Virus record (IMG/VR): IMGVR_UViG_3300044984_001938
DNA from: a virus
Taxonomy: Duplodnaviria > Heunggongvirae > Uroviricota > Caudoviricetes
Strand: one strand, 5' to 3'
DNA: 64,000 bases
Positions 16,404 through 33,234 of this stretch are shown here, piece by piece. The notes under the pieces are model-generated. The model was not told the DNA's origin and made no database searches. It was given only the letters and a program-made list of their open reading frames with translations. A program made the translations under genes and the position numbers. The number at the start of each line of letters is the position of its first letter. Position 1 is the stretch's first letter.

Positions 16404-16422
16404 CAGTTAATGTGTTGTGTAG

Positions 16423-16591
16423 AAACAACATAACAGAGTTTGACAGTAAATGGATACTCTGTTATACTAAGTGTTAATTAAGAAGCAAGTAAAAAGGCTT
16501 TAAAGAATAGTAAGATGTTGCGTAAAAACAACATAACAGAGTTTGACAGTAAATGGATACTCTGTTATACTAAGTGTTAATTAAGAAGCAA
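16423..16591 (+). repeat. exact 66-bp direct repeat, each copy a sigma70 promoter
   Basis: 16423-16488 = 16526-16591; each has TTGACA-17bp-TATACT. Confidence 0.95.
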
Positions 16592-16885
16592 CTATAAAGT
16601 TGTGTAGTGGAGAGTTAGATAGTGTGTATAGGTAACGAGGACCTAGTCTGCACTTAAAACATGGACGAACGGGCGTGAACTAGGATGGAATCCCTTATGT
16701 GGGAGGAAAAATTAGTTCGTATTAAAACACATTCGTTGATCGGTGAGCCTAACAGCAGATCCGCAAATGTCAAAGTGTTGTACACTCAGTTTCGGTCGCG
16801 GCCACGAGCCGGGTATCGGGTAAGACGGTTTAATTCCGTAGTGTGTTTTAATACACGCATTAGAAATAGTGCGAAACAGATTTAT

Positions 16886-16962
16886 TGGGGATTCGCCTAG
16901 TTGGCCTAAGGCACCGGTCTTTGAAATCGGCATCATCAGTTCAAATCTGATATCCCCTGCCA
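16886..16962 (+). tRNA. trnQ: tRNA-Gln(UUG)
   Basis: Cloverleaf; CCGGT-CTTTGAA-ATCGG; CCA. Confidence 0.9.
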
Positions 16963-16966
16963 GTTT

Positions 16967-17024
16967 TAGGATGCGTTCAGCAAATACAACAATTCAAATG
17001 ATAATTGAAAAATAAGCATCCTGT
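16967..17024 (+). ncRNA. CAGCA-family end-paired RNA, copy 1
   Basis: AGGATGC/GCATCCT stem, then CAGCAA. Confidence 0.65.
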
Positions 17025-17032
17025 TATATTTT

Positions 17033-17107
17033 ACTCCGGTCGTCTAGTGGCTAGGACGCCAGCCTTTCAAGTTGGAGAAGCGGGATCGAAACCCGTTCGG
17101 AGTACCA
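17033..17107 (+). tRNA. trnE: tRNA-Glu(UUC)
   Basis: CCAGC-CTTTCAA-GTTGG; CCA. Confidence 0.92.
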
Positions 17108-17114
17108 AGTTTAT

Positions 17115-17200
17115 GGAGTAGACGCCTGAGAGGAAGGGCTCCCGGCTGTAACCCGGAGGACAGTACTGCTGTAGAGGTTCGAACCCTCTCTGCTCCACCA
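17115..17200 (+). tRNA. trnY: tRNA-Tyr(GUA)
   Basis: CTGTAAC loop, long variable arm, CCA. Confidence 0.9.
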
Positions 17201-17346
17201 AGAATCAAGTGGAAAGCAAGAGCCACAAAGTAAACAGTAGAACGTCATGGTCGTGCGGCGTTCTTTGCAGTGTATACTGCGTCAGCCCCGAAAAGGTTGA
17301 GAAACACTGGGGTAAGAGTCCCAACGTAGCACAATCACTAATTTAT

Positions 17347-17425
17347 TCCGCAGAACCCGAGCATGGTGCATGGGCTTGACTGTTAATCAATGACTAGCTG
17401 GGATCGTTACCCAGATGCGGAGCCA
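17347..17425 (+). tRNA. trnN: tRNA-Asn(GUU)
   Basis: TTGA-CTGTTAA-TCAA; CCA. Confidence 0.88.
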
Positions 17426-17431
17426 TTTTTT

Positions 17432-17505
17432 GCCCTTTTCGTATACCGGTATTACGCCTGTTTTGTAATCAGGATAAGGCAGTTCAATTCTGTCAAGGGG
17501 CACCA
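17432..17505 (+). tRNA. trnT: tRNA-Thr(UGU)
   Basis: TTTGTAA loop; CCA. Confidence 0.82.
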
Positions 17506-17597
17506 TCTATAAGCACACACTCTACGCCCTCTTGGAATGGGAGATAGTGTCCATAGCACTGAAGAAAAGTTTAAGTGTGCTTATAAATGTTCAGTTT

Positions 17598-17657
17598 TAG
17601 GATGCTTCCAGCAAATAAATACAACTTTACTTGAAATGAAGCAAAAAAGCATCCTGT
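17598..17657 (+). ncRNA. CAGCA-family RNA, copy 2
   Basis: AGGATGCT/AGCATCCT stem, then CAGCAA. Confidence 0.65.
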
Positions 17658-17665
17658 ATTATAAT

Positions 17666-17743
17666 GCGCCTCTAGCTCAGCTGGATTAGAGCACTGGTTT
17701 ACGAAGCCGGGGGTCGGGAGTTCGAACCTCTCGGGGCGCACCA
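17666..17743 (+). tRNA. trnR: tRNA-Arg(ACG)
   Basis: TTACGAA loop; CCA. Confidence 0.92.
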
Positions 17744-17747
17744 ATCG

Positions 17748-17821
17748 GCTCTTATAGGTAAATGAAATACTGACACTGTGGTATAGTGTAGTCGGAAGTT
17801 TGATTCTTCCTAGGAGCTCCA
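17748..17821 (+). tRNA. trnT: tRNA-Thr(GGU)
   Basis: ACACT-GTGGTAT-AGTGT; U73; CCA. Confidence 0.8.
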
Positions 17822-17827
17822 TTTAAT

Positions 17828-17903
17828 GGTAATATAGCATAGCGGCTAATGCAACTGCTTCATATGCAGTCAATCGTTGGTTCGAGTCCAATTATTACCA
17901 CCA
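17828..17903 (+). tRNA. tRNA-Met or Ile2 (CAU)
   Basis: ACTGC-TTCATAT-GCAGT; CCA. Confidence 0.88.
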
Positions 17904-17904
17904 A

Positions 17905-18066
17905 TCAAAGATTGTTAATAAAGCGTAAGGCTTTGTTGATATTAGTAAAGTATTGCATATGATATTCACAAAAGAATCTATCATATACAATCATACAACA
18001 AACACCATCACATAATGATAGGTGAAAGTTTAAACCTCCTGGAGTAACATTCTTGTAGGTTTTCAT
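17905..18066 (-). pseudogene. small frameshifted ORF inside the tRNA array
   Basis: The ATG after TAAATA is one base out of frame with ...TYKNVTPGGLNFHLSLCDGVCC...FINNL*. Confidence 0.3.
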
Positions 18067-18081
18067 GTAAGTATTTATTAT

Positions 18082-18155
18082 ACCCGGTTAGCACAAAAGT
18101 AGAGCATTCGACTGATAATCGAAAGACAGAGGAGCGTTACCTCTACCGGGTACCA
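18082..18155 (+). tRNA. trnI: tRNA-Ile(GAU)
   Basis: TTCGA-CTGATAA-TCGAA; CCA. Confidence 0.9.
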
Positions 18156-18165
18156 ATTTTTAGTA

Positions 18166-18235
18166 GCGACTATAGTTCAAGCGAACAAGGCCCTCTATGG
18201 GTACGAGGTGCAGGTATCAAGTCCTGTTAGTTGCG
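18166..18235 (+). pseudogene. degenerate tRNA-like element, nominal anticodon CUA
   Basis: GCGACTA/TAGTTGC acceptor stem, D-stem and T-like arm; no CCA. Confidence 0.4.
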
Positions 18236-18315
18236 AATAATGGGGGCAGCAGAGGGCTCTTAGGAAGATAGTGCGGCTCTCAGAAAACCTACATAAATGA
18301 ATTTAGAAAGAATTT

Positions 18316-18393
18316 GGGGAATGGGACTGCTTAGGGTGGTCACTTCACTTGCAATGAAGATACAGATCGGGGCAGAACCGATATTCTCCACCA
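18316..18393 (+). tRNA. trnA: tRNA-Ala(UGC)
   Basis: CTTCA-CTTGCAA-TGAAG; G3:U70; CCA. Confidence 0.9.
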
Positions 18394-18437
18394 TTTAAGT
18401 TCAATATGGATATGCTCCACCAGGCATAAATAACTAT

Positions 18438-19298
18438 ATGGAACAACAAATATTATGCAGTTGTATATACTGCAAGGAAGTTAAATCAGTAAAGGGTATT
18501 CATACTCATGTAGCCCGAGCGCATTTAGGAGCCACCCACTACTCAAGTGGACATAATGGAAAATATAATGACACCGTAAGCCGTGCTAAACTCAAAGATA
18601 GTCGTGATAAGTTTCACAATTTGAAACTTGGTGAACTTACGAAATTTTCCGTGGAGTGTGAAAAATGCAATGTAGCACTTAGTGTAACCGAACGAGCTTT
18701 ACAATTTCCTACTAAGGCAAAATACTTTTGTTCTTTGACATGCAGTAATAGTCATGTTGTAACTGAAGAACACAGACAACAAACATCTGCTACCTTGAGT
18801 GGTAGAATTTACAAACCGCCAGAAGAGATAACAAAAAATTGTATTAATTGTAATACACCGTTTACATATACGAAACACTATACAAAACGGGATAGGAAGA
18901 CATGTAGCCAATCTTGCTCAACAACACACAGTAACATTAGCAGAGGCCTAGCAGCAAGATTGCGAAGGCCTGCCCTAACAAATTACCGGACAGATTGTAA
19001 CTTTAAGTTTAGTCTAAATGACTATCCGACAGAATTTGACTTTACATTAGTCGAACAGTACGGATGGTATAAAGCGAAAAATCGTGGAGACCATTTAACT
19101 GGGGTAAGTAGGGATCATATGGTTAGCGTCCGCTACGGATTTGATAATAATATTGCATCAGAAATTATAAGGCATCCGGCAAATTGCATGTTAATGCAGC
19201 ATAATAAGAATTCATCTAAACATAGTAAATGTTCAATCTTATTAGATGAGTTACTAACTAGAATTAAAGAGTGGGATATTAAATATAGTGGGAGTTAG
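18438..19298 (+). CDS. HNH homing-type endonuclease with N-terminal Zn fingers
   Basis: CxxC repeats; SRDHMVSV...HPANC. Confidence 0.75.
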   Translation: MEQQILCSCIYCKEVKSVKGIHTHVARAHLGATHYSSGHNGKYNDTVSRAKLKDSRDKFHNLKLGELTKFSVECEKCNVALSVTERALQFPTKAKYFCSLTCSNSHVVTEEHRQQTSATLSGRIYKPPEEITKNCINCNTPFTYTKHYTKRDRKTCSQSCSTTHSNISRGLAARLRRPALTNYRTDCNFKFSLNDYPTEFDFTLVEQYGWYKAKNRGDHLTGVSRDHMVSVRYGFDNNIASEIIRHPANCMLMQHNKNSSKHSKCSILLDELLTRIKEWDIKYSGS

Positions 19299-19325
19299 TT
19301 ACTCCAGCGGTCCACCAAAGTTAAT

Positions 19326-19402
19326 GTATCTCTAGTGTAATGGCAGCACACCGGCCTCCAAAGTCGGTCAGTCAGGGTTCGAGTCCTTGGGGGGGTACGC
19401 CA
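19326..19402 (+). tRNA. trnW: tRNA-Trp(CCA)
   Basis: CTCCAAA loop; CCA. Confidence 0.88.
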
Positions 19403-19410
19403 AAGTTTAT

Positions 19411-19489
19411 CTGTGTGTGAGAAAGTCTGGTTTAATCTACCCGCCTTGGAAGTGGGAAATCGCAGGTTCAAATCCTGCCACACAGACCA
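19411..19489 (+). tRNA. trnP: tRNA-Pro(UGG)
   Basis: CCCGC-CTTGGAA-GTGGG; CCA. Confidence 0.9.
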
Positions 19490-19496
19490 AAAATAT

Positions 19497-19571
19497 ATCT
19501 CTCAGGTGTAATGGGCTGCACATCGGTCTCCAAAACCGAAGGACAGGGATCGTAGCCCTGGGGGGATGCCA
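19497..19571 (+). tRNA. trnW: tRNA-Trp(CCA) #2
   Basis: TCGGT-CTCCAAA-ACCGA; CCA. Confidence 0.85.
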
Positions 19572-19656
19572 TAAAACTCGCCTTGATTGATGGCGTACAA
19601 TGAGATAAGTAGTCAATCACAAATTTCGGGGGATAACTGTTATCCTCCACCAAATT

Positions 19657-19715
19657 TAGGATGCTTCCAGCAAGAAAAACAAACTTTATTGAAAAAAAGC
19701 AAAACAGCATCCTGT
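19657..19715 (+). ncRNA. CAGCA-family RNA, copy 3
   Basis: AGGATGCT/AGCATCCT stem, then CAGCAA. Confidence 0.65.
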
Positions 19716-19720
19716 TAAAT

Positions 19721-19797
19721 GCGTGATTAGTTCAGCATGGAAGAACGCTACAGTGACATTGTAGAGGTCAAAAGTTCAAATCTTTTATCACGTACCA
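19721..19797 (+). tRNA. trnV: tRNA-Val(GAC)
   Basis: CTACA-GTGACAT-TGTAG; CCA. Confidence 0.9.
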
Positions 19798-19818
19798 AGA
19801 AAATAAGATAAATAATTA

Positions 19819-19894
19819 CGCGGTGTATGGAAGTGGTCATCCGCTTGGTCTCATAAGCCAAGAATCGCAGGTTCAAATCCTGCCATCGCAACCA
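19819..19894 (+). tRNA. trnM: initiator tRNA-fMet(CAU)
   Basis: C1:A72 mismatch; CTCATAA loop; CCA. Confidence 0.85.
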
Positions 19895-19938
19895 ATCAAC
19901 TTCTCAAGTTTCATTGAGGAATGTATAAAAGAAATTCT

Positions 19939-20012
19939 CTCGGTATGGTGAAATGGTATCACCCGACGTTTGGGACGTTGAAGCGTAGGTTCGATTCCTG
20001 CTACCGAGACCA
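19939..20012 (+). tRNA. trnP: tRNA-Pro(UGG) #2
   Basis: TTTGGGA loop; CCA. Confidence 0.9.
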
Positions 20013-20055
20013 ATCAATTACGGTATCCATAGTGTAAAGGTTCCACTAATTTTAT

Positions 20056-20130
20056 GTTGAGTATGGTGTAATGTTAGCACTTGTGTTTGTGGCACACACG
20101 GAGCGAGTTAGATTCTCGTTACTCGACCCA
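20056..20130 (+). tRNA. trnH: tRNA-His(GUG)
   Basis: G-1:C73; TGTGT-TTGTGGC-ACACA; CCA. Confidence 0.87.
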
Positions 20131-20163
20131 TCATGTTCGTTTACGATAATTACCCCCAAACAT

Positions 20164-20240
20164 GCCCTGGTAGACAAATTGGCAAAGTCAACGGTCTAAG
20201 AAGCCGTAATCTGCGAGTTCAAGTCTCGCCCAGGGCACCA
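20164..20240 (+). tRNA. trnL: tRNA-Leu(AAG), short variable arm
   Basis: ACGGT-CTAAGAA-GCCGT; CCA. Confidence 0.8.
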
Positions 20241-20249
20241 AAAGATTTT

Positions 20250-20364
20250 TAGGATGAGTACAGCAAAAGTAAACTTCTCTTACCATCGCCGAAAGGCACT
20301 CAAGAGGCCGGCCCGCTGGGGGCGTGTCGTGGGTTCGAGTCCCGGCTTAGACACAACATCCTGT
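20250..20364 (+). ncRNA. CAGCA-family RNA, copy 4 (contains a T-arm-like hairpin)
   Basis: AGGATG/CATCCT stem, CAGCAA, internal GGGTTCGAGTCCC. Confidence 0.6.
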
Positions 20365-20372
20365 TTTATTAT

Positions 20373-20451
20373 GCCCCGCTGGACAAATCTGGCAAAGTCG
20401 CTTCCTTCAAAAGGAAGATTGTTCTCGGTTCGAATCCGAGGCGGGGTACCA
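20373..20451 (+). tRNA. trnL: tRNA-Leu(CAA), short variable arm
   Basis: CTTCC-TTCAAAA-GGAAG; CCA. Confidence 0.85.
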
Positions 20452-20456
20452 GTTAT

Positions 20457-20548
20457 GGAAGATGATGCAGCGGGGATGGTCCTGCGACCGGCTTTGAATA
20501 CCGGGTTCTCAGAAATGGGATGGGGTTCGACTCCTCCGTCTTCCGCCA
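20457..20548 (+). tRNA. trnS: tRNA-Ser(UGA)
   Basis: Long variable arm, G73, CCA. Confidence 0.85.
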
Positions 20549-20909
20549 AAGTTTTGTAAGCTACATGGGTTGACCACAACGCCACGCGCCAAGGTAAGGT
20601 AGCTGAAGTGTAAGTAGCAGGTTTGGTCATGCTTACACACTAAAAAGTTTTGTAGTCTAGCGGTTAGCTAGGGTAAAGGCGTTGCGGGCTTAAATGTCGT
20701 TAAACATCGTAGCGCAACTTAATGATAATGTGTGCAGCCTACTACAAATTCAGTTTTGAGATAGACGATGTAGTAGAGTCCCTTGTGCGCTAGTGCCCTA
20801 TTTCTTGAGCATGACACCCCAGTAGCAACATAAGGTCGTATAAACTCCTACAACCGAGACAAGCCAGTGAGTCCTTAAGAAAGATAGTTGGTCTCTCAAA
20901 AACTCATAT

Positions 20910-20985
20910 CCCGACTAAGCTAACCTAGTGGAAGCGCCTGTCTGAAGAACAGGAGGGCTTGGAGCGTAACCAAGAGTCGGGACCA
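20910..20985 (+). tRNA. trnF: tRNA-Phe(GAA)
   Basis: CCTGT-CTGAAGA-ACAGG; CCA. Confidence 0.88.
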
Positions 20986-21098
20986 AAATAAAATTGTTTT
21001 AATATTGTTACTGCAAGGCCTAACTCGTTCAAATCAAGCTGTGTCTCATCTCTAAACGAGATAACAATAAAAATATAACATAATTAACATTTTACATT

Positions 21099-21734
21099 AT
21101 GCATAAATATAACATGCATACTATATCTCTTTTTTATAAAATGGCATTAATGTCATTGGATGAGGCACTCTCATTGGAGCACGTTGCATTACAGCTTAGT
21201 GATAATTCTGTAGTGGTTGAGGTTGGGTGTTTTATGGGCGGCAGTGCAGCAATAATAGCACATACAAATAAATCAATATCGGTGCATTCTTTTGATTTAT
21301 TCGAGGACGATACCCATACTGCCTATAGAGGCCCGAACCAGTATAAGTTATTTTCGCAACTTTTACAAGAAAAGAAGCCGGTTAGATCATTAGATAATGT
21401 GCGTAAAATCTTATCTTACAGTAATATTCATTTATATAAAGGTAGAAGTCCGGTTGATTTTGTAAATTGGGATACACCTATTGATATGTATTTTGAAGAT
21501 AGTTTACACACTAATCCGTCATTATCCATGAATATTAAGTTTTGGGAACCAAAACTTAAGGAAGGGGGGTATTTATTAATGCATGATTGCAGACCATTTC
21601 TTCCTAAGGATCACTTTCATAGATTTATTGATGTAGAATACGAAAGTGAAAAATTATTAGCTAACGGATATAAAAAAATATCACATGTTGGTGCTCTTTT
21701 GGTTTTACAAAAATGCATTTCGACGGTAAAGTAA
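21099..21734 (+). CDS. class I SAM methyltransferase (Methyltransf_24-like)
   Basis: VVEVGCFMGGS; IDMYFEDSLH; GGYLLMHD. Confidence 0.85.
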   Translation: MHKYNMHTISLFYKMALMSLDEALSLEHVALQLSDNSVVVEVGCFMGGSAAIIAHTNKSISVHSFDLFEDDTHTAYRGPNQYKLFSQLLQEKKPVRSLDNVRKILSYSNIHLYKGRSPVDFVNWDTPIDMYFEDSLHTNPSLSMNIKFWEPKLKEGGYLLMHDCRPFLPKDHFHRFIDVEYESEKLLANGYKKISHVGALLVLQKCISTVK

Positions 21735-22306
21735 AATTTCTATTAGATTTAGAATCAACTCAAGAATTTATCTCTTTGAGACATTGTATATTAAATTTTG
21801 AATGGCAAAAACATAGTAATCTATTCAATATAGCTGATATTGCATTTAAGAATTCCGGGGTAATTCAATTTAATTATAATAAATTAATGAGGCACATTAG
21901 ACCACAACCTGTCTATGTGAAAGACATTAATACATTAATTGATGTTGCTATGCCGGTTGTAGAAAACATCAAATCTATATTTCCGAAACATAATGTATTA
22001 AAATCACATTTTGTAGCACTTAACCCCAGCGGAAGACAATACCCCCACATAGACAGTATATATTACCATAATTTTTGCACTAGACTAGTGATACCTATAA
22101 CAGGTAACGATAAGTGTGTATCTTTTATAGGAAATGAGGAATTTAATTTATCCATCGGGCAATTGTATGAGATTAATAATAAATTAATACATTATAGTGA
22201 AAATTTAGGTAACAGTATTAGAACATATATGTTTGTAGACATATATGATGAAGGAAAGGCCTATTCATTGAATGGGCATTACAAATATTCGGGATTAGTG
22301 TTGTAA
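21713..22306 (+). CDS. AspH-like hydroxylase
   Basis: PHIDSIYYH...RLVIPI...YEINNKLIH. Confidence 0.75.
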   Translation: MHFDGKVKFLLDLESTQEFISLRHCILNFEWQKHSNLFNIADIAFKNSGVIQFNYNKLMRHIRPQPVYVKDINTLIDVAMPVVENIKSIFPKHNVLKSHFVALNPSGRQYPHIDSIYYHNFCTRLVIPITGNDKCVSFIGNEEFNLSIGQLYEINNKLIHYSENLGNSIRTYMFVDIYDEGKAYSLNGHYKYSGLVL

Positions 22307-22375
22307 AAGTTTCATTGAACAATTGAAACATTAGAAGGGTTGAGTTCAAATCCAACCTATGGTACCAAATTATTT

Positions 22376-22436
22376 CTCGCTATAGTTCAACTGGATAGAA
22401 CAATTTTCTCCTAAGGAATAGATGATAGTTCAAGTC
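22376..22436 (+). pseudogene. 5' part of split tRNA-Arg(CCU)
   Basis: Acceptor 5' strand, D-arm, anticodon arm with CCT, and T-stem 5' strand. Confidence 0.8.
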
Positions 22437-22455
22437 AACATTTAATAAATAATGT

Positions 22456-23115
22456 ATGAGATATAATTTATTAATACCCGGTTGGATGTCTGTTGTTGAC
22501 TTAGAGATACTTAACCGGCTTGCTAGTTATGTTCCTGAAAACGGAAGCATTTTGGAAGTTGGTTGTTTTGTAGGCAGGTCCACATCTGCATTATTTTCAG
22601 GAAAACCTGCTAGTGCAACTTTAGAAGTGGTAGACACATTTGACGTTAGTAATCCATATGGATTACACATTTCTGATAATAATATTAAAGGTAGTCAATA
22701 TTACAAAAACAAAATTAAAGAAATAGCTAAAAATACAGGGAGTTGGGAAGAATCATTTCGGTTTTGTTTAACCCCAGAAGTTGCAGATCACATACAGATA
22801 TCAGTTGCATCAAGTTTGGAATATAATTTAACAAAACAATTTGATATGGTTTTTATAGATGCAAATCATGCGGTTAATCATGTATTACATGATATCAAGA
22901 AATTTGCATCTAAAAATACATTATTAGTGGGAGACGATTTTTCCAAAACTTATTTAGGAGTTGCTGAAGCATTAGCACTAGTTCATTTTGAAATACCTAG
23001 CACACTTATTGCTCCGTCAAATTCTAAAATTTGGATCATGGTTCCCGAGGCAGGGTACTGGAATAATTTGTTCCTAACAGTGCCCGGATTGCTAGTTATA
23101 CAAGTTACTGTCTAA
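22456..23115 (+). CDS. class I SAM methyltransferase (Methyltransf_24-like)
   Basis: ILEVGCFVGRST; FDMVFIDANH; VGDDF. Confidence 0.85.
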   Translation: MRYNLLIPGWMSVVDLEILNRLASYVPENGSILEVGCFVGRSTSALFSGKPASATLEVVDTFDVSNPYGLHISDNNIKGSQYYKNKIKEIAKNTGSWEESFRFCLTPEVADHIQISVASSLEYNLTKQFDMVFIDANHAVNHVLHDIKKFASKNTLLVGDDFSKTYLGVAEALALVHFEIPSTLIAPSNSKIWIMVPEAGYWNNLFLTVPGLLVIQVTV

Positions 23116-23188
23116 AAACACTGGACTTAACTGTACCCAAACATGATTTGATAACCGAATAGTACCGGGCTAAAAAGCCGGGTTCTGC

Positions 23189-23213
23189 GAGTTCAAATCT
23201 ATCTAGTGAGACC
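23189..23213 (+). pseudogene. 3' part of split tRNA-Arg(CCU)
   Basis: AGTTCAAAT-CTATC-TAGTGAG-ACCA complements the 5' part. Confidence 0.8.
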
Positions 23214-23276
23214 AACACCAATCTAGATTTTAGTTTGGTTGACACAAAATACTAATTGTAGTATAATAAACATTAT

Positions 23277-23348
23277 GAGCCTTTGGTGCAATGGATAGCA
23301 TACAAGTTTCCGATACTTGAGATGCAAGTTCAATTCTTGCAAGGCTCT
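23277..23348 (+). tRNA. trnR: tRNA-Arg(CCG), no encoded CCA
   Basis: CAAGT-TTCCGAT-ACTTG. Confidence 0.8.
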
Positions 23349-23384
23349 CAGGGGGTAAATACAACGACAGAAAAGGAGTTTAAC

Positions 23385-23945
23385 ATGGCTGTTTTAGCAT
23401 TGGACATTTCAGGGATCCCAAGACAATGGATCTCACACGATGAAGCAATTACATACCATGCCAAAGGTGCGGTAGCATGGAGCATGGGTGAAATTGTTGC
23501 TAAGTATCACGGTGGTGTTCAAAACTCCGGTGATCAAAGCTATCTTGAAACTGCTAGTATTATTGCTGTTAAAGGTCACGGATTCAATCCATACAAACAT
23601 GCTACTGTGGCATTGACTAACAAAACCTTGTTTGGACGGGACCGGCAAGTGTGTGCGTATTGTGGCAAACATCATGCCAACACTCATCACTTAAGCAGGG
23701 ACCATATTGTCCCTAAATTTTTAGGTGGCTACAATGTTTGGGAAAATGTAGTGACTGCATGTAAAGTTTGTAATAGTAAGAAAGGTCATAAGACATTGAA
23801 GGAATCTCGTATGGAACTATTATATGTTCCGTATATCCCTTCTCATCACGAAAACATGATTTTACAACATCGTAATATCTTAGTGGATCAAATGGATTAC
23901 TTGTTAGCAGGTGTTCCAAAACATTCTAGAATTTGGCAGACTTAG
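23385..23945 (+). CDS. HNH endonuclease (McrA/HNH_5-like)
   Basis: RDRQVCAYCG...SRDHIVP...NVVTACKVCNSKKG; start re-placed after RBS AAGGAG. Confidence 0.9.
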   Translation: MAVLALDISGIPRQWISHDEAITYHAKGAVAWSMGEIVAKYHGGVQNSGDQSYLETASIIAVKGHGFNPYKHATVALTNKTLFGRDRQVCAYCGKHHANTHHLSRDHIVPKFLGGYNVWENVVTACKVCNSKKGHKTLKESRMELLYVPYIPSHHENMILQHRNILVDQMDYLLAGVPKHSRIWQT

Positions 23946-24023
23946 ATTGACATAAAAATCAAGCTAGTGTAGAATTCATATTAAATAAAGATAGCAGTAA
24001 GTAACGACATTGCTATTGAAATT

Positions 24024-24099
24024 GCCGATTTAGCTCATTTGGTAGAGCGCCGCTCTTGTAAGGCGGATGTGGTCAGTTCGAATCCGACAATCGGCACCA
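24024..24099 (+). tRNA. trnT: tRNA-Thr(UGU) #2
   Basis: CCGCT-CTTGTAA-GGCGG; CCA. Confidence 0.92.
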
Positions 24100-24226
24100 A
24101 ATTTTAGCAGTAACTTATACAGTATATAATGTAGAAAGTTATGTAGGCAACATCCAAACAGGCACGGGTTGCATTAACCTACGACAACGACGGATACGGT
24201 CTTGCCAAATTTTTAATGGAGCATTT

Positions 24227-24421
24227 ATGTTAATTAGTAATTCAGCAGGTTATAAAGTATTTTGCGAAACCAATCTCATTGATGTCCTTCCGGGCCACTA
24301 CCATGTTCGGATGTATTCAACAGATGAACATGCCAAAGAACCTGGTAAACAACAACCTAAATTTAATATGATTATGTCTCTGGCGGATTTAGAACAATTC
24401 AGACAATCGCTAACCGTCTAA
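24227..24421 (+). CDS. hypothetical protein
   Basis: 64-aa ORF with RBS GGAG. Confidence 0.6.
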   Translation: MLISNSAGYKVFCETNLIDVLPGHYHVRMYSTDEHAKEPGKQQPKFNMIMSLADLEQFRQSLTV

Positions 24422-24471
24422 AACTTGACACTAAATCACTTGTATGATATACTGTCAGTAGTGAAAATCAT

Positions 24472-24546
24472 CTGGCGTTCGTTCAACGGATAGGACATGA
24501 TTCTTCTAAAGTCATTATAGAGGTTCGATTCCTCTACGCCGGACCA
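24472..24546 (+). tRNA. trnR: tRNA-Arg(UCU)
   Basis: CTTCTAA loop; CCA; sigma70-like promoter upstream. Confidence 0.88.
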
Positions 24547-24563
24547 TAATAAAAGGAAATTAA

Positions 24564-25310
24564 ATGATAGATTCAAAACATAATTTTATCCCAGCCGTGA
24601 TTAATGGTATTAATGGAATGCCTTTTGTAGATTTTACTGCTTCATGCAATTTTGATTTTGAAAAAATGAATGAGGAAATTTGCATAGCACTTGCTACTAC
24701 GAATCTTGATAAATTTCCAATGGTTGGTGGAGGTATACCTCCTAAACTTAGAGAAAGAGAAATTGATGCTGAGTTTGAATTATCAATTTTAGCTAATTAT
24801 GCAGGAGACAAAAGTGTGTTTACTAACATGTCTCCGATGGAAAAAAGAAAATATTTATTTTTTAAACATAAAAGTTTAATACCTTGGTATTTCATTTTAG
24901 ATTTAAAACCAAATTGGTTTAGAACTAAAACTCAAGATTTATATCCTTGGGCTGATATAATTGAAAAGTTTCCATACACTAAAAAATGTATTGAACAATT
25001 GCCATTTAAGGAAATTGGTAGGGTGGTCATATATGGCTCTTGGCCTGAAGCAAGAGTCCCGTGTCATAGAGATCAACCGATGTACGAGGGTTTTGATCAT
25101 CATATTAATTTTAATCCCGGTGGATATAGATCGGTATTCATATATGATTCTTTAAATGACAATAAGATATTTTTACCTAAAGATTACAAATTATATGCTT
25201 ATAATACTTCGGATTATCATGGAGTAGATCCTTTACCTCACTTCTCATATACTATTAGAGTGGACGGGAAGTATAGTGATGCAGGATTAGAACTTATTCC
25301 AAAAGGTTGA
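24564..25310 (+). CDS. putative 2OG-Fe(II)/cupin oxygenase
   Basis: VPCHRD...YHGVD. Confidence 0.6.
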   Translation: MIDSKHNFIPAVINGINGMPFVDFTASCNFDFEKMNEEICIALATTNLDKFPMVGGGIPPKLREREIDAEFELSILANYAGDKSVFTNMSPMEKRKYLFFKHKSLIPWYFILDLKPNWFRTKTQDLYPWADIIEKFPYTKKCIEQLPFKEIGRVVIYGSWPEARVPCHRDQPMYEGFDHHINFNPGGYRSVFIYDSLNDNKIFLPKDYKLYAYNTSDYHGVDPLPHFSYTIRVDGKYSDAGLELIPKG

Positions 25311-25431
25311 CAATAAATGGTGTTTAGTATATAATACATACTTAGATTGATTGAATAGTTCTTGGAAACGGTAGCTTAATGCTAGTAGACACAAAAAGTT
25401 CTTGACAATTAATCTAAACGGTGTTATAATA
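25307..25431 (+). promoter_or_regulatory. two sigma70 promoters
   Basis: Two TTGACA-17-TATAAT matches. Confidence 0.8.
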
Positions 25432-25688
25432 GACACATAGCAGAAAATGATAGAGTTATCTGCAACAAGATCATTAAAAAATTAATTATGTAATTTCTCG
25501 CTAAGACAACATCAAGCACGATTTTGTTGCAAGGTGATAACAGTCCGCAATCTTGTGAAAGACAGCGTAGCGAAAAGTTATATATAAGCTCTAGTGTAAA
25601 TGAGCACCCGCCCCTAGTACTAGTCTGGAATCAAGGGTGTAGAACACGCAGCCCACAAGGCAGATGCAAGTGAGTTTATATATAACAT

Positions 25689-25774
25689 GGATGCTTATAC
25701 CGTTAAGGAGACGGTTCCGGCTGTAACCCGGACGCCGCGAGGCTCTGATGGATCGTTACCATCAGCATTCACCA
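25689..25774 (+). tRNA. trnY: tRNA-Tyr(GUA) #2
   Basis: CTGTAAC loop; long variable arm; CCA. Confidence 0.87.
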
Positions 25775-25904
25775 GATTTCGGAGACTGAAACTTATCAGT
25801 TGTTTATCCCCCGCGAGCCGGCGGCAAAGGTAATCAAAGATAAGCGAATAATGTGGACGGCACAAGAGGCATCCCTTTTGTGTAGGCTGTCTCCAATTTT
25901 TATT

Positions 25905-25982
25905 GCTTCGTTAGCATAGCTGGCCTAATGCGCTACCCTGTCACGGTAGAGATCAGGGGTTCAAATCCCCTACGAGGCGCCA
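25905..25982 (+). tRNA. trnD: tRNA-Asp(GUC)
   Basis: CTACC-CTGTCAC-GGTAG; CCA. Confidence 0.92.
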
Positions 25983-26389
25983 AAGAGCAGCGGATAAGTT
26001 ACATTATCCAGTATGAGTCATCGGGGTATCCTGCAGAAAATCCCTGGGACGAGCAATAGTACAATCATGCAATGTAACAGGAGAGCAGTGATCTGCTTCA
26101 CGGGGAATCCTCACAGAATGTCCTCTACCATATAAAAACACACTAGCCGGCAACCTGAATCAGAACGGCTCTGCTATAATAGGCAGCGTATACAAGTCAG
26201 TGTGTTTCTATATGGTATCATAGTTCAACAGATTACTCAACAGTATCTTACTCTCAGGGTGGTGACTGAGCAACAGACGCTGCACAGAGGAATATAATAG
26301 TTTCCCGCACTAGGGTCGTTCTAGTCTGTTGAACTATGGTCTCATAAGGAGTAATTACCCTTAACCATACTCGGGAGTCATGACCTGAG

Positions 26390-26564: not shown

Positions 26565-26795
26565 TTTTGTAAGTGTCAGCAAGAGAAAGTCACGCTATAC
26601 TGTATTCTTCGAAGGTACTTTATAGTAGAAGGCAAATGGGTTCGATCCCCACCCGGGCACATAGTGTCCGAGGTAGAAAGGTCTATACGCTAGACTAGTA
26701 TCCCAAGTGACATGCCCTGGAAAACCTCGGTGTGAATTGCTAGCGTTGCACATCTAAATAATAGGAACTAACCTGAGGGTCCTATGCTTACAAAT
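26565..26795 (+). ncRNA. long CAGCA-family RNA (variant closing stem)
   Basis: TTTGTAAG/CTTACAAA stem, 3 nt, CAGCAA; internal GGTTCGATCC. Confidence 0.55.
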
Positions 26796-27775: not shown

Positions 27776-27835
27776 TAGGATTCTTTCAGCAAGCTAAAAA
27801 TTTCTACCATTAATCAGAAAAAAAGCGAATCCTGT
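27776..27835 (+). ncRNA. CAGCA-family RNA, copy 5
   Basis: AGGATTC/GAATCCT stem, then CAGCAA. Confidence 0.65.
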
Positions 27836-30767: not shown

Positions 30768-31556
30768 ATGCAAGTTCTATTACAAGATATCAGTACATAC
30801 GAAACCCGAACAATCAGTCAAGCATGTATGCTTACTAATACAAAGGTACATCGTACTAGTTTGGGAATGTTACAAACCCTCTTTGACTTCAAAGCTGAAT
30901 TATGCCGAGGGGACTTAATGCCTGTTGGTAGTGTTGAATTTGTAAGAGAATGTTTTGAGATTATGGGTATTCACCAGGTGCCCTTATGGTACTCATACCC
31001 TAAGGTGTTGAATTCATTCTTACACAGGCGTATCGTTGTACGCAGCGAAATTTATGTACGAAACATGCTACAATCACAACTAATAGTGCCTGCATTAAGT
31101 CCGATCTTTATCAAGCCTGCTGCTAAGTTAAAGTTGTTCAATGGATTTATATTCTATCCCGATAAAGATAGAGCAGAGTACGATGAACATGATAGGGAGC
31201 AGTGGGATATTGTGATGGCTTCTCGTGGCAAGGAACTGATTTTTGTTAGCAATGTAGTAGACTTCATTAGTGAATGGCGCTATTACATTGATGACAATAA
31301 GATTGTTGGTTCAGCAAGATATGATGATGGTCCTGATGAGGCCTTATCGCCGGAACTCACTGTAGTACACCAGATGATTGAAGCAATGCAGACAGATCAC
31401 CCGTATACATTAGATGTAGGGAGACTATCAACTGGTGAGACCGCATTAGTAGAAACCAACGATGCATGGGCAATCGGTTTGTACAGTAGAGCATTAGAAC
31501 CCAAGGTTTATTTAAACTTTTTGGGTAAACGATGGAAATCAATTGTTGACAAGTAA
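30768..31556 (+). CDS. ATP-grasp protein, R2K/DUF4343-like
   Basis: PVGSVEFV, IFIKP, SEWRYYI, LDVG...LVETNDAWAIGLY. Confidence 0.8.
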   Translation: MQVLLQDISTYETRTISQACMLTNTKVHRTSLGMLQTLFDFKAELCRGDLMPVGSVEFVRECFEIMGIHQVPLWYSYPKVLNSFLHRRIVVRSEIYVRNMLQSQLIVPALSPIFIKPAAKLKLFNGFIFYPDKDRAEYDEHDREQWDIVMASRGKELIFVSNVVDFISEWRYYIDDNKIVGSARYDDGPDEALSPELTVVHQMIEAMQTDHPYTLDVGRLSTGETALVETNDAWAIGLYSRALEPKVYLNFLGKRWKSIVDK

Positions 31557-31574
31557 ACAAAACTAAGCTATAAT
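31546..31574 (+). promoter_or_regulatory. sigma70 promoter for the CAGCA RNAs and DUF2828 gene
   Basis: TTGACA-17-TATAAT. Confidence 0.85.
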
Positions 31575-31595: not shown

Positions 31596-31729
31596 TAGGA
31601 TAGGTGCAGCAATCAAATTAATCAACTTGGAATGCTACTTTGACCCTGGACATCAAACTCCAGACTAAGTAGATAGAGTGGTTTCGACAGTTCCCCTCGA
31701 TAAAAGAAAAAAGTAGATAACTATCCTGT
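31596..31729 (+). ncRNA. CAGCA-family RNA, copy 7
   Basis: AGGATAG/CTATCCT stem, then CAGCAA. Confidence 0.65.
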
Positions 31730-31735: not shown

Positions 31736-31795
31736 TAGGTTAGCATCAGCAACATAATTTGTGTCTGCTAGGACATTAAACTAGTATTAACCTGT
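31736..31795 (+). ncRNA. CAGCA-family RNA, copy 8
   Basis: AGGTTAG/TTAACCT stem, then CAGCAA. Confidence 0.65.
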
Positions 31796-31818: not shown

Positions 31819-33234
31819 ATGCAATTCGCAACAGCAATCGCTAATCAAGAGGCCCGCACTACTAATGGTATGAAGGCTCGTGAGTCAACAGCTAACTCGT
31901 GTGTTGACTTGTTCTACAACATCGGCGCAAGTCGTGGGAAAAACATTATCCCTCAATTCACCGCAGCTTATGTTGAAAATGCCGATCTGGCATTGCGTAT
32001 TGTTCAATGGGCACGTGATGTCCGTGGTGGCGCCGGTGAGCGTGAATTGTTCCGTCAAGTGTTGACTCACTTGGAAAAGACTAACCCAGCTGATGCCGCT
32101 CGCCTTATCACTAAGGTGCCTGAACTTGGTCGTTTTGACGATTTGCTAGTGTTCCAAACTAAGGAAATGAAGGATAAGGCCTACACCTTGCTTGGTGATC
32201 ACTTGCGTCAAAAGAATGGCCTTGCAGGAAAATGGACTCCTCGCAAGGGCAAGATCGCGGCTGAAATTCGTGACTTCTTCGGTATGAGCCCAAAGCAATA
32301 TCGTAAAACTTTGGTTGGTATGACGACCGTTGTTGAAACACAAATGTGTGCCAATGACTGGGATAACATCAATTACAGTCACGTTCCAAGTGTGGCGCAT
32401 AGTCGTTACAAGAAGGCTTTTGGTCGTCATGGTGCAACTTATGCTGAGTACATCACTAAGTTGGTTAAGGGCGAAGCAGGTGTGAAGATCAATGCTGGCG
32501 CAATCTTCCCGCATGATGTGTTGAAGGGTCGTATCGGTGGGTACGGTGTAACTGCTTGGTCAGTGACTGAGTTGGGTGCTATTGAAGCACAATGGAATGC
32601 ATTGCCTGACTATGTTGGTGACTCCAGCGTGTTGCCTCTAGTTGATGTTAGTGGCTCCATGAGTTGCAAGGCAGGCCAAAAGGGTGACACCACATGCCTA
32701 GAAATTGCGGTATCATTGGGATTGTACTTTGCTGACAAGAACAAGGGTAAGTTCAAGGACTGTTTCTTGACTTTCAGCGAAAAGCCAAGATTGATGAACC
32801 TTAAGGGTTCTATCAATGAAAAGATTGACCAAATGGTCGGTTCTGATTGGTGCATGAATACAAATCTACATGGTGCGTTCGTTCAAATTCTTAACACGGC
32901 TGTTCAGAATCATGTGCCTCAATCAGAAATGCCTGAAACACTGATGATTTTCTCTGATATGCAATTTGACCAATGTGTCAAGCATGATGACAGTGCTATG
33001 GAAATGATTGCCCGTAAGTATGCTGATGCAGGATACGAATTGCCTAAGGTAGTTTTCTGGAACTTGAATGCAAGCGGAAACGCTCCAGTCAAGTTTGACA
33101 AGAGCGGAACCGCTCTTGTGTCAGGATTCTCTCCAGCAATTGCTGCTAGTGTATTAGGTGCAGACCCAGACGCATTTAGCCCCGAGGCAATTATGCTTAA
33201 GGCCGTGATGAATAGTCGGTACGATTTAGCGTAA
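31819..33234 (+). CDS. DUF2828-type TROVE/Ro60-like protein with vWA domain
   Basis: TTNG..A, WARDVRGGAGER, LAGKWTPR, LVDVSGSM (MIDAS), FSDMQFD, VVFWNL, VSGFSP. Confidence 0.85.
   Translation: MQFATAIANQEARTTNGMKARESTANSCVDLFYNIGASRGKNIIPQFTAAYVENADLALRIVQWARDVRGGAGERELFRQVLTHLEKTNPADAARLITKVPELGRFDDLLVFQTKEMKDKAYTLLGDHLRQKNGLAGKWTPRKGKIAAEIRDFFGMSPKQYRKTLVGMTTVVETQMCANDWDNINYSHVPSVAHSRYKKAFGRHGATYAEYITKLVKGEAGVKINAGAIFPHDVLKGRIGGYGVTAWSVTELGAIEAQWNALPDYVGDSSVLPLVDVSGSMSCKAGQKGDTTCLEIAVSLGLYFADKNKGKFKDCFLTFSEKPRLMNLKGSINEKIDQMVGSDWCMNTNLHGAFVQILNTAVQNHVPQSEMPETLMIFSDMQFDQCVKHDDSAMEMIARKYADAGYELPKVVFWNLNASGNAPVKFDKSGTALVSGFSPAIAASVLGADPDAFSPEAIMLKAVMNSRYDLA

What the first reader, a model, noticed from the sequence alone, without database searches (positions are those of the whole stretch)
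16993..17641. Anticodon stem-loop mimics mounted inside the short CAGCA RNAs
Seen: copy 1 holds TTCAA-ATGATAA-TTGAA, which matches this phage's tRNA-Ile arm TTCGA-CTGATAA-TCGAA with a compensatory G-C to A-T change. Copy 2 holds CTTTA-CTTGAAA-TGAAG, a 5-bp stem with a 7-nt loop, U33 and a UGA anticodon, two bases from the tRNA-Ala arm. Copy 3 has a weaker TTGAAAA loop, and copy 4 has a T-arm instead. Known: many anti-phage systems (PrrC, RloC, PARIS, retron PtuAB) cleave tRNA anticodon loops. Inference: these are decoys or sensors for anticodon nucleases or modifying enzymes.
Basis: partly seen in the sequence, partly recalled or inferred. Interest (0 to 1): 0.78.

Follow-up and report, generated by a model that had tools for sequence, protein, structure and literature searches.

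The report
Anticodon-arm look-alikes on phage Y-like RNAs
Two of this lake phage's small "CAGCAA-handle" RNAs carry a hairpin built like a tRNA anticodon arm; the feature is conserved in about half of the short members of a widespread phage RNA family encoded beside a Ro60-like protein gene, and may bait host enzymes that cut tRNAs.

Summary

Of 164 unique short homologues, 55% fold into a stem of at least 4 bp with a 7-nt loop, against 3% of shuffles. Of those, 82% have U33 and a purine at 37. Loop composition tracks real tRNAs. In 15 long homologues the same hairpin sits 3-5 nt before a T-arm, as in tRNA.

The resemblance to this phage's own tRNA-Ile arm (14/17) is at chance level. The tRNA-Ala match (15/17) is only marginal. 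The AU-rich stems do not appear in single-sequence minimum-energy folds.

The elements belong to a phage-wide family with a 7-bp closing stem, NUN-CAGCAA and a CUGU end. The family lies beside a DUF2828 protein whose model folds like Ro60, so these are Y-RNA-like tRNA mimics.

Family-wide, 61% of displayed triplets are UUU, UGU or GUU, and most carry UAAU. These are the published targets and local motif of the PARIS nuclease AriB. The decoy idea is therefore plausible but untested. This window's triplets are GAU and UGA.

This scan found the family earlier on other DNA.

The parts
16968..17022 (+). CAGCAA-handle RNA copy 1. P1 is 16968-16974 with 17016-17022, GTT follows, then CAGCAA at 16978-16983. 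The inner anticodon-arm-like hairpin is 16993-17009 (A32 U33 GAU A37 A38, then U39).
   Evidence: (71.4 bits)
17599..17655 (+). CAGCAA-handle RNA copy 2. P1 is 17599-17605 with 17649-17655. The inner hairpin is 17625-17641 (C32 U33 UGA A37 A38). Its loop is identical to that of the phage's tRNA-Ser(UGA).
   Evidence: (72.2 bits)
19658..19713 (+). CAGCAA-handle RNA copy 3. The inner CTTT/AAAG stem has an 8-nt loop ATTGAAAA (19684-19699), so it is not a canonical anticodon-arm shape.
20251..20362 (+). Long CAGCAA-handle RNA copy 4. P1 is AGGATG/CATCCT. It carries a T-arm-like hairpin (loop TTCGAGT at 20334-20340).
27777..27833 (+). CAGCAA-handle RNA copy with P1 AGGATTC/GAATCCT. The inner 5-bp stem has a 10-nt loop, so it is not anticodon-arm-like.
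26565..26795 (+). Long divergent family member, with limits approximate. P1 is TGTAAG/CTTACA followed by TGT-CAGCAA. It contains a T-arm-like GGGTTCGATCCCC.
   Evidence: read by eye and not scored
30522..30757 (+). Long family member with P1 GGGATGG/TCATCCC followed by CTA-CAGCAT.
31546..31574 (+). Sigma-70-type promoter (TTGACA, 17 nt, TATAAT) ahead of two handle RNAs and the Ro60-like gene.
31597..31727 (+). Long CAGCAA-handle RNA with P1 AGGATAG/CTATCCT, directly upstream of the Ro60-like gene.
31737..31793 (+). Short CAGCAA-handle RNA with P1 AGGTTAG/TTAACCT, ending 25 nt before the Ro60-like start codon. Its inner hairpin is not anticodon-arm-like.
   Evidence: (21.4 bits)
31819..33234 (+). 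DUF2828 + DUF7788 protein with a predicted Ro60 fold (helical ring plus vWA domain with the DxSxS MIDAS motif). It is the presumed protein partner of the RNAs.
18082..18152 (+). tRNA-Ile(GAU). Its anticodon arm at 18107-18123 is the arm compared with copy 1.
18343..18359 (+). Anticodon arm CTTCA-CTTGCAA-TGAAG of a tRNA-Ala-like gene, compared with copy 2. The gene was called by neither ARAGORN nor Rfam at gathering score.
16440..16571 (+). Two tandem strong sigma-70-type promoters (11 of 12 consensus matches each) that probably drive the tRNA and handle-RNA array.

Best explanation
The hairpins in copies 1 and 2 are the display module of a Y-RNA-like small RNA. Each RNA has a constant handle: a 7-bp helix joining its 5' and 3' ends, then NUN-CAGCAA, then a CUGU-type 3' end. 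Each also has a swappable insert that copies part of a tRNA.

In short members the insert is an anticodon arm, with a 5-bp stem and a 7-nt loop of the form C/A-U-NNN-A-A. In long members it is a T-arm, a T/D elbow, or a whole circularly permuted tRNA.

The RNAs are transcribed inside the tRNA array, or from the promoter of the Ro60-like gene. They are presumably released by tRNA-processing enzymes. The handle presumably docks them on the phage's Ro60-like protein (31819-33234).

The displayed arm then most likely engages a protein that normally reads tRNA anticodon arms. The leading candidate is a host anticodon-arm nuclease of anti-phage defence, such as PARIS AriB. The RNA would act as a decoy or as a tether to the Ro60-like particle.

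Shown here: the conserved architecture, the tRNA-like loop signature, the position relative to T-arms, the gene linkage and the Ro60 fold of the protein.

Inferred: RNA-protein binding, release as small RNAs, and any action on nucleases.
For: 1. The family is real.
- A scan of viral contigs with the handle found more than 118 loci, and 116 of 121 hits have the closing strand.
- A scan that ignores the P1 sequence found 365 elements against 3 in shuffled DNA. P1 covaries: AGGATGC, AGGATCG, AGGATAG, AGGTTAG and others.

2. The inner helix covaries at 5 of 5 pairs. It is 85% paired, against about 40% when the pairing is slid.

3. Geometry.
- 91 of 164 unique short forms have a 7-nt loop, and 80 of those have exactly 5 bp. 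Only 3.3% of shuffles do.
- 75 of the 91 have U33 and a purine at 37, against 17% of shuffles.
- Loop frequencies in the mimics are C32 63%, U33 86%, A37 78% and A38 75%. In 845 tRNA arms from the same loci they are 63%, 98%, 89% and 73%.

4. The triplet is the variable part.
- In the 16-member subfamily that holds copy 1, the positions that vary are loop positions 34-35 (and 32, in the window copy alone), two covarying stem pairs, one handle position and a 7-nt linker.
- Nine permuted whole-tRNA mimics share one scaffold but display ACG, GCG, GCA, GGA or GUA.

5. In 15 long forms the arm lies 3-5 nt upstream of a canonical T-arm. Of 141 long forms, 61 have a T-arm; no short form does.

6. Partner protein.
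- The AlphaFold2 model has pLDDT 90, and its top 13 PDB matches are all Ro60/TROVE.
- Handle RNAs lie directly next to the gene in this window and in four of five related giant-phage loci.
- The same holds in phages BUCT-ZZ01, CP30A, Listeria LP-124, mycobacteriophage Crossroads and wV8. In KVP40 they lie in the tRNA array about 7 kb away.
- T4 and T5 have neither the gene nor the RNAs.

7. Link to defence.
- 46 of 75 displayed triplets are UUU, UGU or GUU, against 10% of the phages' tRNA genes. In the NNU-AA class, 49 of 52 hairpins have U36-A-A-U39.
- AriB cuts tRNA-Lys(UUU), Thr(UGU) and Asn(GUU), which share UAAU (PMC12409363).
- The Ro60-like gp130 of the Felix-O1-type phage Bas63 was reported to counter the Ppl defence system (preprint 10.1101/2024.10.10.617714).

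8. Precedent: bacterial Y RNAs mimic tRNA, and Yrn1 has an 'anticodon arm' with 5 bp and a 6-nt loop (PMC4201824).
Against: - The stems are very AU-rich, 21% GC against 60% in real tRNA arms. The hairpin is absent from the minimum-energy and centroid folds of whole copies 1 and 2 at 37 C.
- Only 2 of the 5 short copies in this window, and about half of short homologues, have the canonical shape.
- Promoter-proximal members rarely do: 6 of 30.
- A second loop class shares a sequence motif (UGGAA, UGAAA, GCGGA) across distant phages. That looks more like a specific binding site than a free 'anticodon'. Copy 2 belongs to this class.
- This window's triplets are not AriB targets.
- The mimics do not track their own phage's tRNAs, and their triplet is no more often present or absent among co-resident tRNAs than a random one.
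- The counts are not phylogenetically independent.
- There is no direct evidence of expression ends, protein binding or nuclease interaction. Metatranscriptome contigs of relatives cover copy 1, but they cannot show transcription or RNA ends.
Confidence: 0.5

Rival explanations
1. The arm is a vestige. The family arose from tRNA genes, as the permuted and natural-order whole-tRNA members suggest. The anticodon-arm shape survives in short members only because it helps folding, processing by RNase P or RNase E, or modification by host tRNA enzymes. The triplet has no target-specific role.
For: Whole-tRNA-like members exist, in natural order (D, anticodon arm, T) and permuted. The elements occupy tRNA slots directly after CCA ends and before the next tRNA. 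Bacterial Y RNAs are thought to derive from tRNAs and are modified by tRNA enzymes (PMC4201824). Half of the short members have lost the canonical loop.
Against: C32, U33, A37 and A38 are kept while the stems covary through at least ten stem variants. The triplet spectrum is strongly skewed to three anticodons. It switches between near-identical scaffolds. This pattern points to selection on what the loop presents.
Confidence: 0.25
2. The loop is a sequence-specific docking site for a non-tRNA partner, such as the Ro60-like protein itself or a host exoribonuclease like PNPase (as in Ro60/Y-RNA/PNPase particles). Its likeness to an anticodon loop is incidental.
For: Copy 2's loop class shares UGGAA, UGAAA or GCGGA across Vibrio, Listeria, E. 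coli and Mycobacterium phages. The Ro60 of Thermus phage phiLo forms complexes with its Y-like RNAs and host PNPase (PMC12135203).
Against: The NNU-AA class varies exactly at positions 34-35 and keeps the tRNA flanks. The same arm sits in register with T-arms in long forms.
Confidence: 0.12
3. The displayed arm works in translation. It would occupy ribosomal decoding sites, or (for the permuted whole-tRNA forms) be processed into a working or poisoning tRNA.
For: The permuted members hold all four tRNA arms, including 6-7-bp acceptor-like hairpins. M. smegmatis YrlA is cut by RNase P and receives CCA (PMC4201824).
Against: Short forms have no acceptor end, CCA, or D and T arms. Acceptor-like hairpins are closed by a conserved loop. 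Some triplets, such as AUU, are not natural bacterial anticodons.
Confidence: 0.08
4. There is nothing specific here. These are chance AU-rich hairpins, or a TTGAAA -35 box of internal promoters.
For: TTGAAA occurs in copies 1-3, and a weak promoter-like match (9 of 12) overlaps copy 1. Single-sequence folds do not need the hairpin.
Against: Promoter-like hits in the region are at the shuffle level, 14 found against 9.2 +/- 3.7 expected. The spacing to a -10 box differs between copies. Homologues carry many other loops without TTGA. Covariation and a 17-fold excess of 7-nt loops over shuffles argue against chance.
Confidence: 0.03

Closest known systems
Bacterial and phage Y RNAs bound by Ro60/Rsr: YrlA and YrlB (Rfam RF02553), D. 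radiodurans Yrn1, and Yrl1/Yrl2 of Thermus phage phiLo (PMC4201824, PMC12135203)
   Same: These are small RNAs whose 5' and 3' ends form a protein-binding stem. They are encoded beside, and on the same strand as, a Ro60-fold protein gene. A second module mimics tRNA: YrlA has T-arm, acceptor-like stem and D-arm, and Yrn1 has a 5-bp 'anticodon arm'. They occur in phages, and links to RNA repair and defence have been proposed.
   Different: The handle is NUN-CAGCAA plus a CUGU end, not the GNCGAA/CGAA Ro-binding motif. No Rfam YrlA match was found. The protein belongs to DUF2828/DUF7788 rather than Pfam TROVE, and has no sequence match to solved Ro60 structures. Many copies occur per genome, embedded in tRNA arrays. 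Minimal 55-nt members display only an anticodon arm with a canonical 7-nt loop and a changing triplet.
Class I RNAs of Dictyostelium (Rfam RF01414; PMC7919456)
   Same: They are 42-65 nt long, with a 6-7-bp stem joining the ends. A (C)CUUACAGCAA motif lies directly after the 5' strand, the interior is variable and A-rich, and the ends are conserved (AAG... ...CUGU). The three short copies here and a wV8 element are full-length matches to RF01414.
   Different: Scores of 20-29 bits are below the gathering score of 41.5. The hosts are phages of bacteria, not amoebae. There is no DUSE promoter. No anticodon-arm insert is described for Class I RNAs. Whether dictyostelids pair them with a DUF2828 protein could not be checked here.
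Phage tRNAs that neutralise tRNA-targeting defences: T5 tRNA-Lys, Thr and Asn against PARIS AriB, and T5 tRNA-Tyr against retron PtuAB (PMC11464382, PMC12409363, PMC11555353)
   Same: They are encoded in phage tRNA arrays. The same anticodons dominate: UUU, UGU, GUU, and also GUA. The anticodon arm is the contested surface.
   Different: Those are complete, functional, cleavage-resistant tRNAs that replace the cut host tRNA. These RNAs cannot decode. They keep, rather than mutate, the UAAU motif near the AriB cut site, so they would act as bait and not as replacement.

Membership tests
tRNA anticodon stem-loop (structural mimic) | 5-bp stem closed by a 7-nt loop | tested here: met
   Copies 1 and 2 have it. 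Of 164 unique short homologues, 91 have a 7-nt loop, and 80 of those have exactly 5 bp, against 3.3% of shuffles. Copy 3 and the copy at 27777 do not.
tRNA anticodon stem-loop (structural mimic) | U33, purine 37, and the C32/A38 preference, with a variable middle triplet | tested here: met
   The frequencies are C32 63%, U33 86%, A37 78% and A38 75%, against 63%, 98%, 89% and 73% in 845 tRNA arms of the same loci. Positions 34-35 are the main variable loop positions in copy 1's subfamily; position 32 changes only in the window copy.
tRNA anticodon stem-loop (structural mimic) | Placed 4-5 nt (the variable loop) upstream of a T-arm | tested here: met
   This holds for 15 long family members, including 9 permuted whole-tRNA mimics. 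It does not apply to the short copies of this window.
tRNA anticodon stem-loop (structural mimic) | A stable helix comparable to real tRNA arms | tested here: not met
   Stem GC is 21% against 60%. The hairpin is absent from the minimum-energy and centroid folds of whole copies 1 and 2.
Y RNA (partner of a Ro60-type protein) | Terminal stem formed by the 5' and 3' ends, with a conserved motif next to it | tested here: met
   The P1 helix covaries and CAGCAA is near-invariant.
Y RNA (partner of a Ro60-type protein) | Encoded next to a Ro60-fold protein gene, on the same strand | tested here: met
   True in the window, in four of five related giant-phage loci, and in five of six cultured phages of five host groups. 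In KVP40 the elements lie in the tRNA array about 7 kb from the gene. The fold is shown. T4 and T5 lack both.
Y RNA (partner of a Ro60-type protein) | Ro-binding sequence GNCGAAN0-1G / CGAA, or a match to Rfam YrlA or Y_RNA | tested here: not met
   No such Rfam match at gathering score or at E-value 5. The handle sequence is different.
Y RNA (partner of a Ro60-type protein) | Physical binding to the Ro60-type protein | not testable with these tools
   This needs pull-down or gel-shift experiments.
Dictyostelium Class I RNA (RF01414) | Length 42-65 nt, 6-7-bp terminal stem, CUUACAGCAA motif after the 5' strand, CUGU end | tested here: met
   The phage consensus is AGGAUGC-NUN-CAGCAA...GCAUCCUGU, and wV8 has UUACAGCAA.
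Dictyostelium Class I RNA (RF01414) | Reaches Rfam's gathering score | tested here: not met
   Scores are 29.4, 27.2, 25.3 and 20.1 bits, against 41.5.
Decoy for an anticodon-arm nuclease (function) | Displays the anticodon and local motif of a known nuclease target | tested here: inconclusive
   Family-wide, 46 of 75 triplets are UUU, UGU or GUU, and 49 of 52 NNU-AA hairpins have UAAU, matching AriB targets (PMC12409363). This window shows GAU (with UAAU) and UGA, for which I know of no matching nuclease.
Decoy for an anticodon-arm nuclease (function) | Is bound or cut by the nuclease and protects tRNA or the phage | not testable with these tools
   This needs biochemistry and phage genetics.

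The most novel reading that the evidence does not exclude
The short CAGCAA-handle RNAs are programmable anticodon-arm baits. Docked on the phage's Ro60-like ring, they capture or exhaust host nucleases that cut tRNA anticodon arms, such as PARIS AriB, PrrC/RloC types or retron PtuAB. The phage retargets the bait simply by changing the three displayed bases. This would be an RNA-based counter-defence that complements cleavage-resistant phage tRNAs.
Probability: 0.25. Interest if true: 0.85.

Novelty: new variant of a known kind. Interest (0 to 1): 0.68.

Why it matters
tRNA anticodon arms are a main battleground between bacteria and phages. The known phage answers are replacement tRNAs and RNA repair enzymes.

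A conserved, multi-copy RNA that shows only the contested arm, mounted on a handle tied to a Ro60-like protein, would be a third answer. It would also give the large DUF2828 family a concrete job. That family has about 6,000 clusters at 50% identity and occurs in 711 of 50,697 phage records.

The idea is directly testable. Felix-O1-type coliphages, KVP40, Listeria A511-type phages and mycobacteriophages carry both parts. One Ro60-like gene of this type has already been reported as an anti-defence gene.

The handle's likeness to the orphan Class I RNAs of Dictyostelium adds a second open question.

Tried and rejected
- Megablast of the region against cultured phages found no match. No whole genome is held for the window.
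- At gathering scores, Rfam finds only tRNAs.
- I considered that TTGAAA in copies 1-3 is a -35 box. I rejected this because the spacing is inconsistent, the scan is at chance level and homologues lack it.
- I considered that the hairpins copy this phage's own tRNA arms. I rejected this because own-locus and foreign-locus matches are equal, and same-anticodon tRNAs share little beyond the loop.
- I asked whether the mimic triplet fills a gap in, or duplicates, the co-resident tRNA set. It does neither: 59% against 56%.
- I considered an armless working tRNA. I rejected this because there is no CCA or acceptor end, and some triplets are unnatural.
- I briefly considered a self-cleaving ribozyme, a riboswitch and an intrinsic terminator. 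No Rfam support was found, and no terminator-like sites lie at the elements.
- I tried to learn whether Dictyostelium has a DUF2828 protein, for example DDB_G0281243, which was pulled down with a Class I RNA. The key paper is not held. Protein searches returned phage and fungal homologues only. The question is unresolved.
- Metatranscriptome contigs of relatives cover copy 1 in two studies, but contigs cannot show transcription, strand or ends.
- Single-sequence folds do not show the inner hairpin.
Full report
**Setting**

The window is part of an uncultured T4-type giant lake phage (earlier notes). It has no near match among cultured phages.

From 16886 to 29739 it carries at least 31 tRNA genes on the + strand. 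Two tandem strong promoters lie upstream at 16440 and 16543.

Scattered through this array are elements with one frame: (U)AGGAUGC, three bases NUN, CAGCAA, a variable insert, an A-rich linker, then GCAUCCU-GU(U). I found five by pattern and repeat search.

My covariance model added two divergent ones just upstream of the gene at 31819.

**Checking the observation**

- Copy 1 has TTCAA-ATGATAA-TTGAA at 16993-17009.
- The tRNA-Ile arm TTCGA-CTGATAA-TCGAA is at 18107-18123.
- Copy 2 has CTTTA-CTTGAAA-TGAAG at 17625-17641.
- The tRNA-Ala-like arm CTTCA-CTTGCAA-TGAAG is at 18343-18359, two mismatches from copy 2.
- Copy 2's loop also equals the loop of the phage's tRNA-Ser(UGA).
- Copy 3 has only a 4-bp stem and an 8-nt loop.
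- Copy 4 has a T-arm-like hairpin.

**Is the family real?**

Of 121 hits, 116 have the complementary closing strand within 200 nt.

A scan that ignores the P1 sequence needs only seven pairing bases, three free bases and CNGCAN. It found 365 elements (305 unique), against 3 in shuffled loci.

P1 covaries widely: AGGATGC, AGGATCG, AGGATAC, AGGATAG, AGGTTAG and others.

Elements sit directly after a tRNA's CCA, directly before the next tRNA, or about 7 nt after a TATAAT box.

They are conserved.

- In a 76-sequence alignment the inner helix covaries at all five pairs. It is 85% paired, against about 40% for slid controls.
- Of 164 unique short forms, 91 (55%) fold to a stem of at least 4 bp with a 7-nt loop. 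Of these, 80 have exactly 5 bp. Only 3.3% of shuffles do this.
- Of the 91, 75 have U at loop position 2 and a purine at position 6, against 17% of the few shuffles that form such loops.
- Over 51 distinct hairpins the loop reads C32 63%, U33 86%, A37 78% and A38 75%. In 845 distinct anticodon arms of tRNAs from the same loci the values are 63%, 98%, 89% and 73%.
- In the 16-member subfamily holding copy 1, the handle (apart from one of its three free bases), the 3' linker and loop positions 33 and 36-38 are invariant. What varies is a 7-nt linker, two covarying stem pairs and loop positions 34-35; position 32 changes only in the window copy.

**Homology with whole tRNA mimics**

- Of 141 long forms, 61 contain a canonical T-arm. 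No short form does.
- In 15 long forms an anticodon-arm-like hairpin lies 3-5 nt upstream of the T-arm, as in tRNA.
- Some 97-nt members run in natural order: handle, D-like hairpin, anticodon arm, variable loop, T-arm.
- Nine others are circularly permuted whole tRNAs: anticodon arm, variable loop, T-arm, acceptor-like hairpin with covarying stem, D-arm.
- On that near-identical scaffold the triplet reads ACG, GCG, GCA, GGA or GUA.

The short hairpin is therefore the family's anticodon-arm module, not a chance hairpin.

**What does not hold**

The link to this phage's own tRNA-Ile and tRNA-Ala arms does not hold.

- For 89 such hairpins, the best match anywhere in their own locus averages 12.65 of 17, against 12.68 in unrelated loci.
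- A 14/17 match occurs in 13-15% of comparisons and a 15/17 match in 1-2%.
- TTCAA/TTGAA is simply the subfamily's consensus stem.
- The displayed triplet is present among co-resident tRNAs no more and no less than a random one, 59% against 56%.

The stems are far more AU-rich than real tRNA arms, 21% against 60% GC. Whole-element folds of copies 1 and 2 at 37 C show only P1.

Promoter-proximal members are rarely arm-like, 6 of 30.

A second loop class includes copy 2. It shares UGGAA, UGAAA or GCGGA across very distant phages, which looks like a fixed binding motif.

**Context: a Ro60-like partner**

The gene at 31819-33234 carries DUF2828 and DUF7788. Its homologues keep a complete DxSxS MIDAS motif.

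The AlphaFold2 model has pLDDT 90. Its 13 best PDB matches are all Ro60/TROVE, including the Ro60 of Thermus phage phiLo. Sequence search alone finds no solved relative.

Evidence for linkage between the gene and the RNAs:

- One promoter at 31546 precedes two handle RNAs and then this gene.
- Eight of ten large IMG/VR contigs carrying the RNA also encode the protein.
- In four of five related loci, model hits lie directly upstream of the gene, with compensatory P1 changes.
- Among cultured phages, the elements are adjacent to the gene in Synechococcus phage BUCT-ZZ01, Campylobacter CP30A, Listeria LP-124 and mycobacteriophage Crossroads.
- In E. coli phage wV8, four elements lie in the tRNA array after the gene. 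In KVP40 they lie in the tRNA array.
- T4 and T5 have neither the gene nor significant RNA hits.

The arrangement parallels Ro60 with Y RNAs, which mimic tRNA. YrlA has T, acceptor-like and D arms, and Yrn1 has a 5-bp 'anticodon arm' (PMC4201824). PhiLo Ro60 binds two upstream Y-like RNAs (PMC12135203).

The handle differs from the Ro-binding CGAA motif, and no Rfam Y-RNA model matches.

The only Rfam family that aligns full-length is Dictyostelium Class I RNA. It scores 20-29 bits, below threshold. Its published definition matches the handle point for point.

**Mechanism**

Most likely the handle docks the RNA on the Ro60-like ring. The insert then presents part of a tRNA to a protein that reads tRNAs.

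- Family-wide, 46 of 75 arm-like hairpins display UUU, UGU or GUU, against 10% of the phages' tRNA genes. By distinct hairpins the count is 16 of 37. In the NNU-AA class, 49 of 52 have U36-A-A-U39.
- AriB of PARIS cuts tRNA-Lys(UUU), Thr(UGU) and Asn(GUU) in the anticodon stem, and these share UAAU (PMC12409363).
- A preprint reports that the Ro60-like gp130 of the Felix-O1-type phage Bas63 counters the Ppl defence system. It guessed that some neighbouring 'tRNA genes' are Y RNAs (10.1101/2024.10.10.617714).

These links are circumstantial. The counts are not phylogenetically independent, and this window's triplets (GAU, UGA) are not the AriB set.

No binding, cutting or even RNA ends have been shown. 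Metatranscriptome contigs of relatives cover copy 1 but prove little.

**Novelty and standing**

I found no paper describing the CAGCAA handle or its anticodon-arm display.

tRNA mimicry by Y RNAs is known, so I rate this a new variant of a known kind.

This scan had already found the family on other DNA many times, including a sister case with tRNA-Lys loops. My analysis was done before reading those notes and agrees with them.

Noticed in passing
window 16968-17022, 17599-17655, 19658-19713; L125 4383-4440: The short elements are full-length but sub-threshold matches (20-29 bits, gathering score 41.5) to Rfam RF01414, the Class I RNAs of Dictyostelium. Those RNAs are described as unique to dictyostelids. 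The stem length, the (U)UACAGCAA motif and the CUGU end all agree. One of four proteins pulled down with a Class I RNA (DDB_G0281243) has no known function, and I could not check whether it is a DUF2828 protein.
   Followed up: partly
window 17201-17431: This 230-nt stretch between tRNA-Tyr and tRNA-Thr has no tRNA or Rfam call and only short mechanical ORFs. Relatives of it are covered by metatranscriptome contigs from three studies. It may be another structured RNA.
   Followed up: no
window 18082-18152 and about 18316-18393: ARAGORN misses tRNA-Ile(GAU), which Rfam finds. A tRNA-Ala(UGC)-like gene is called by neither tool at default thresholds. The array also holds further uncalled tRNA-like 3' ends at about 22344, 23189 and 28997.
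   Followed up: no
window 29251-29325: The phage's tRNA-Lys(UUU) has an unusual anticodon loop, UUUUUAC, with U32 and C38 instead of C32 and A38. This recalls the loop changes proposed to let phage tRNAs escape anticodon nucleases.
   Followed up: no
window 27845-27882: GCCCTGGTGGCGAAATTGGTAGAG looks like the 5' part (acceptor strand and D-arm) of a tRNA-Leu. It sits directly after a handle RNA and just before the called tRNA-Leu(UAG) at 27883-27959. It may be a broken or interrupted tRNA.
   Followed up: no
window 16408-16496 and 16511-16599: An 89-nt tandem duplication (93% identical) gives two copies of a near-consensus promoter (TTGACA, 17 nt, TATACT with an upstream TG) at the head of the tRNA array.
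   Followed up: partly
window 21099-23115, 29696-31556, 33914-34468: Protein genes lie within and beside the RNA array: three methyltransferase-domain proteins, an aspartyl/asparaginyl-hydroxylase-like protein, an R2K-clade ATP-grasp protein (30768-31556) just before the Ro60-like operon, and a metallophosphoesterase after it. They may belong to an RNA or translation-modification module.
   Followed up: no
L125 (Escherichia phage wV8) 4216-4990; L141 (Listeria LP-124) 2623-2884 and 5815-7026: wV8 has four handle RNAs in the tRNA array directly after its Ro60-like gene, and one is a permuted whole-tRNA mimic. An annotated ORF (gp048) overlaps them and is probably spurious. In Listeria LP-124, three handle RNAs precede the gene, and an RtcB-like RNA ligase lies 1.3 kb downstream.
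   Followed up: partly
L043 1787-2164: A related viral contig encodes a tmRNA (Rfam beta_tmRNA 133.8 bits; permuted tmRNA 142.7 bits) near its tRNA and handle-RNA array.
   Followed up: no
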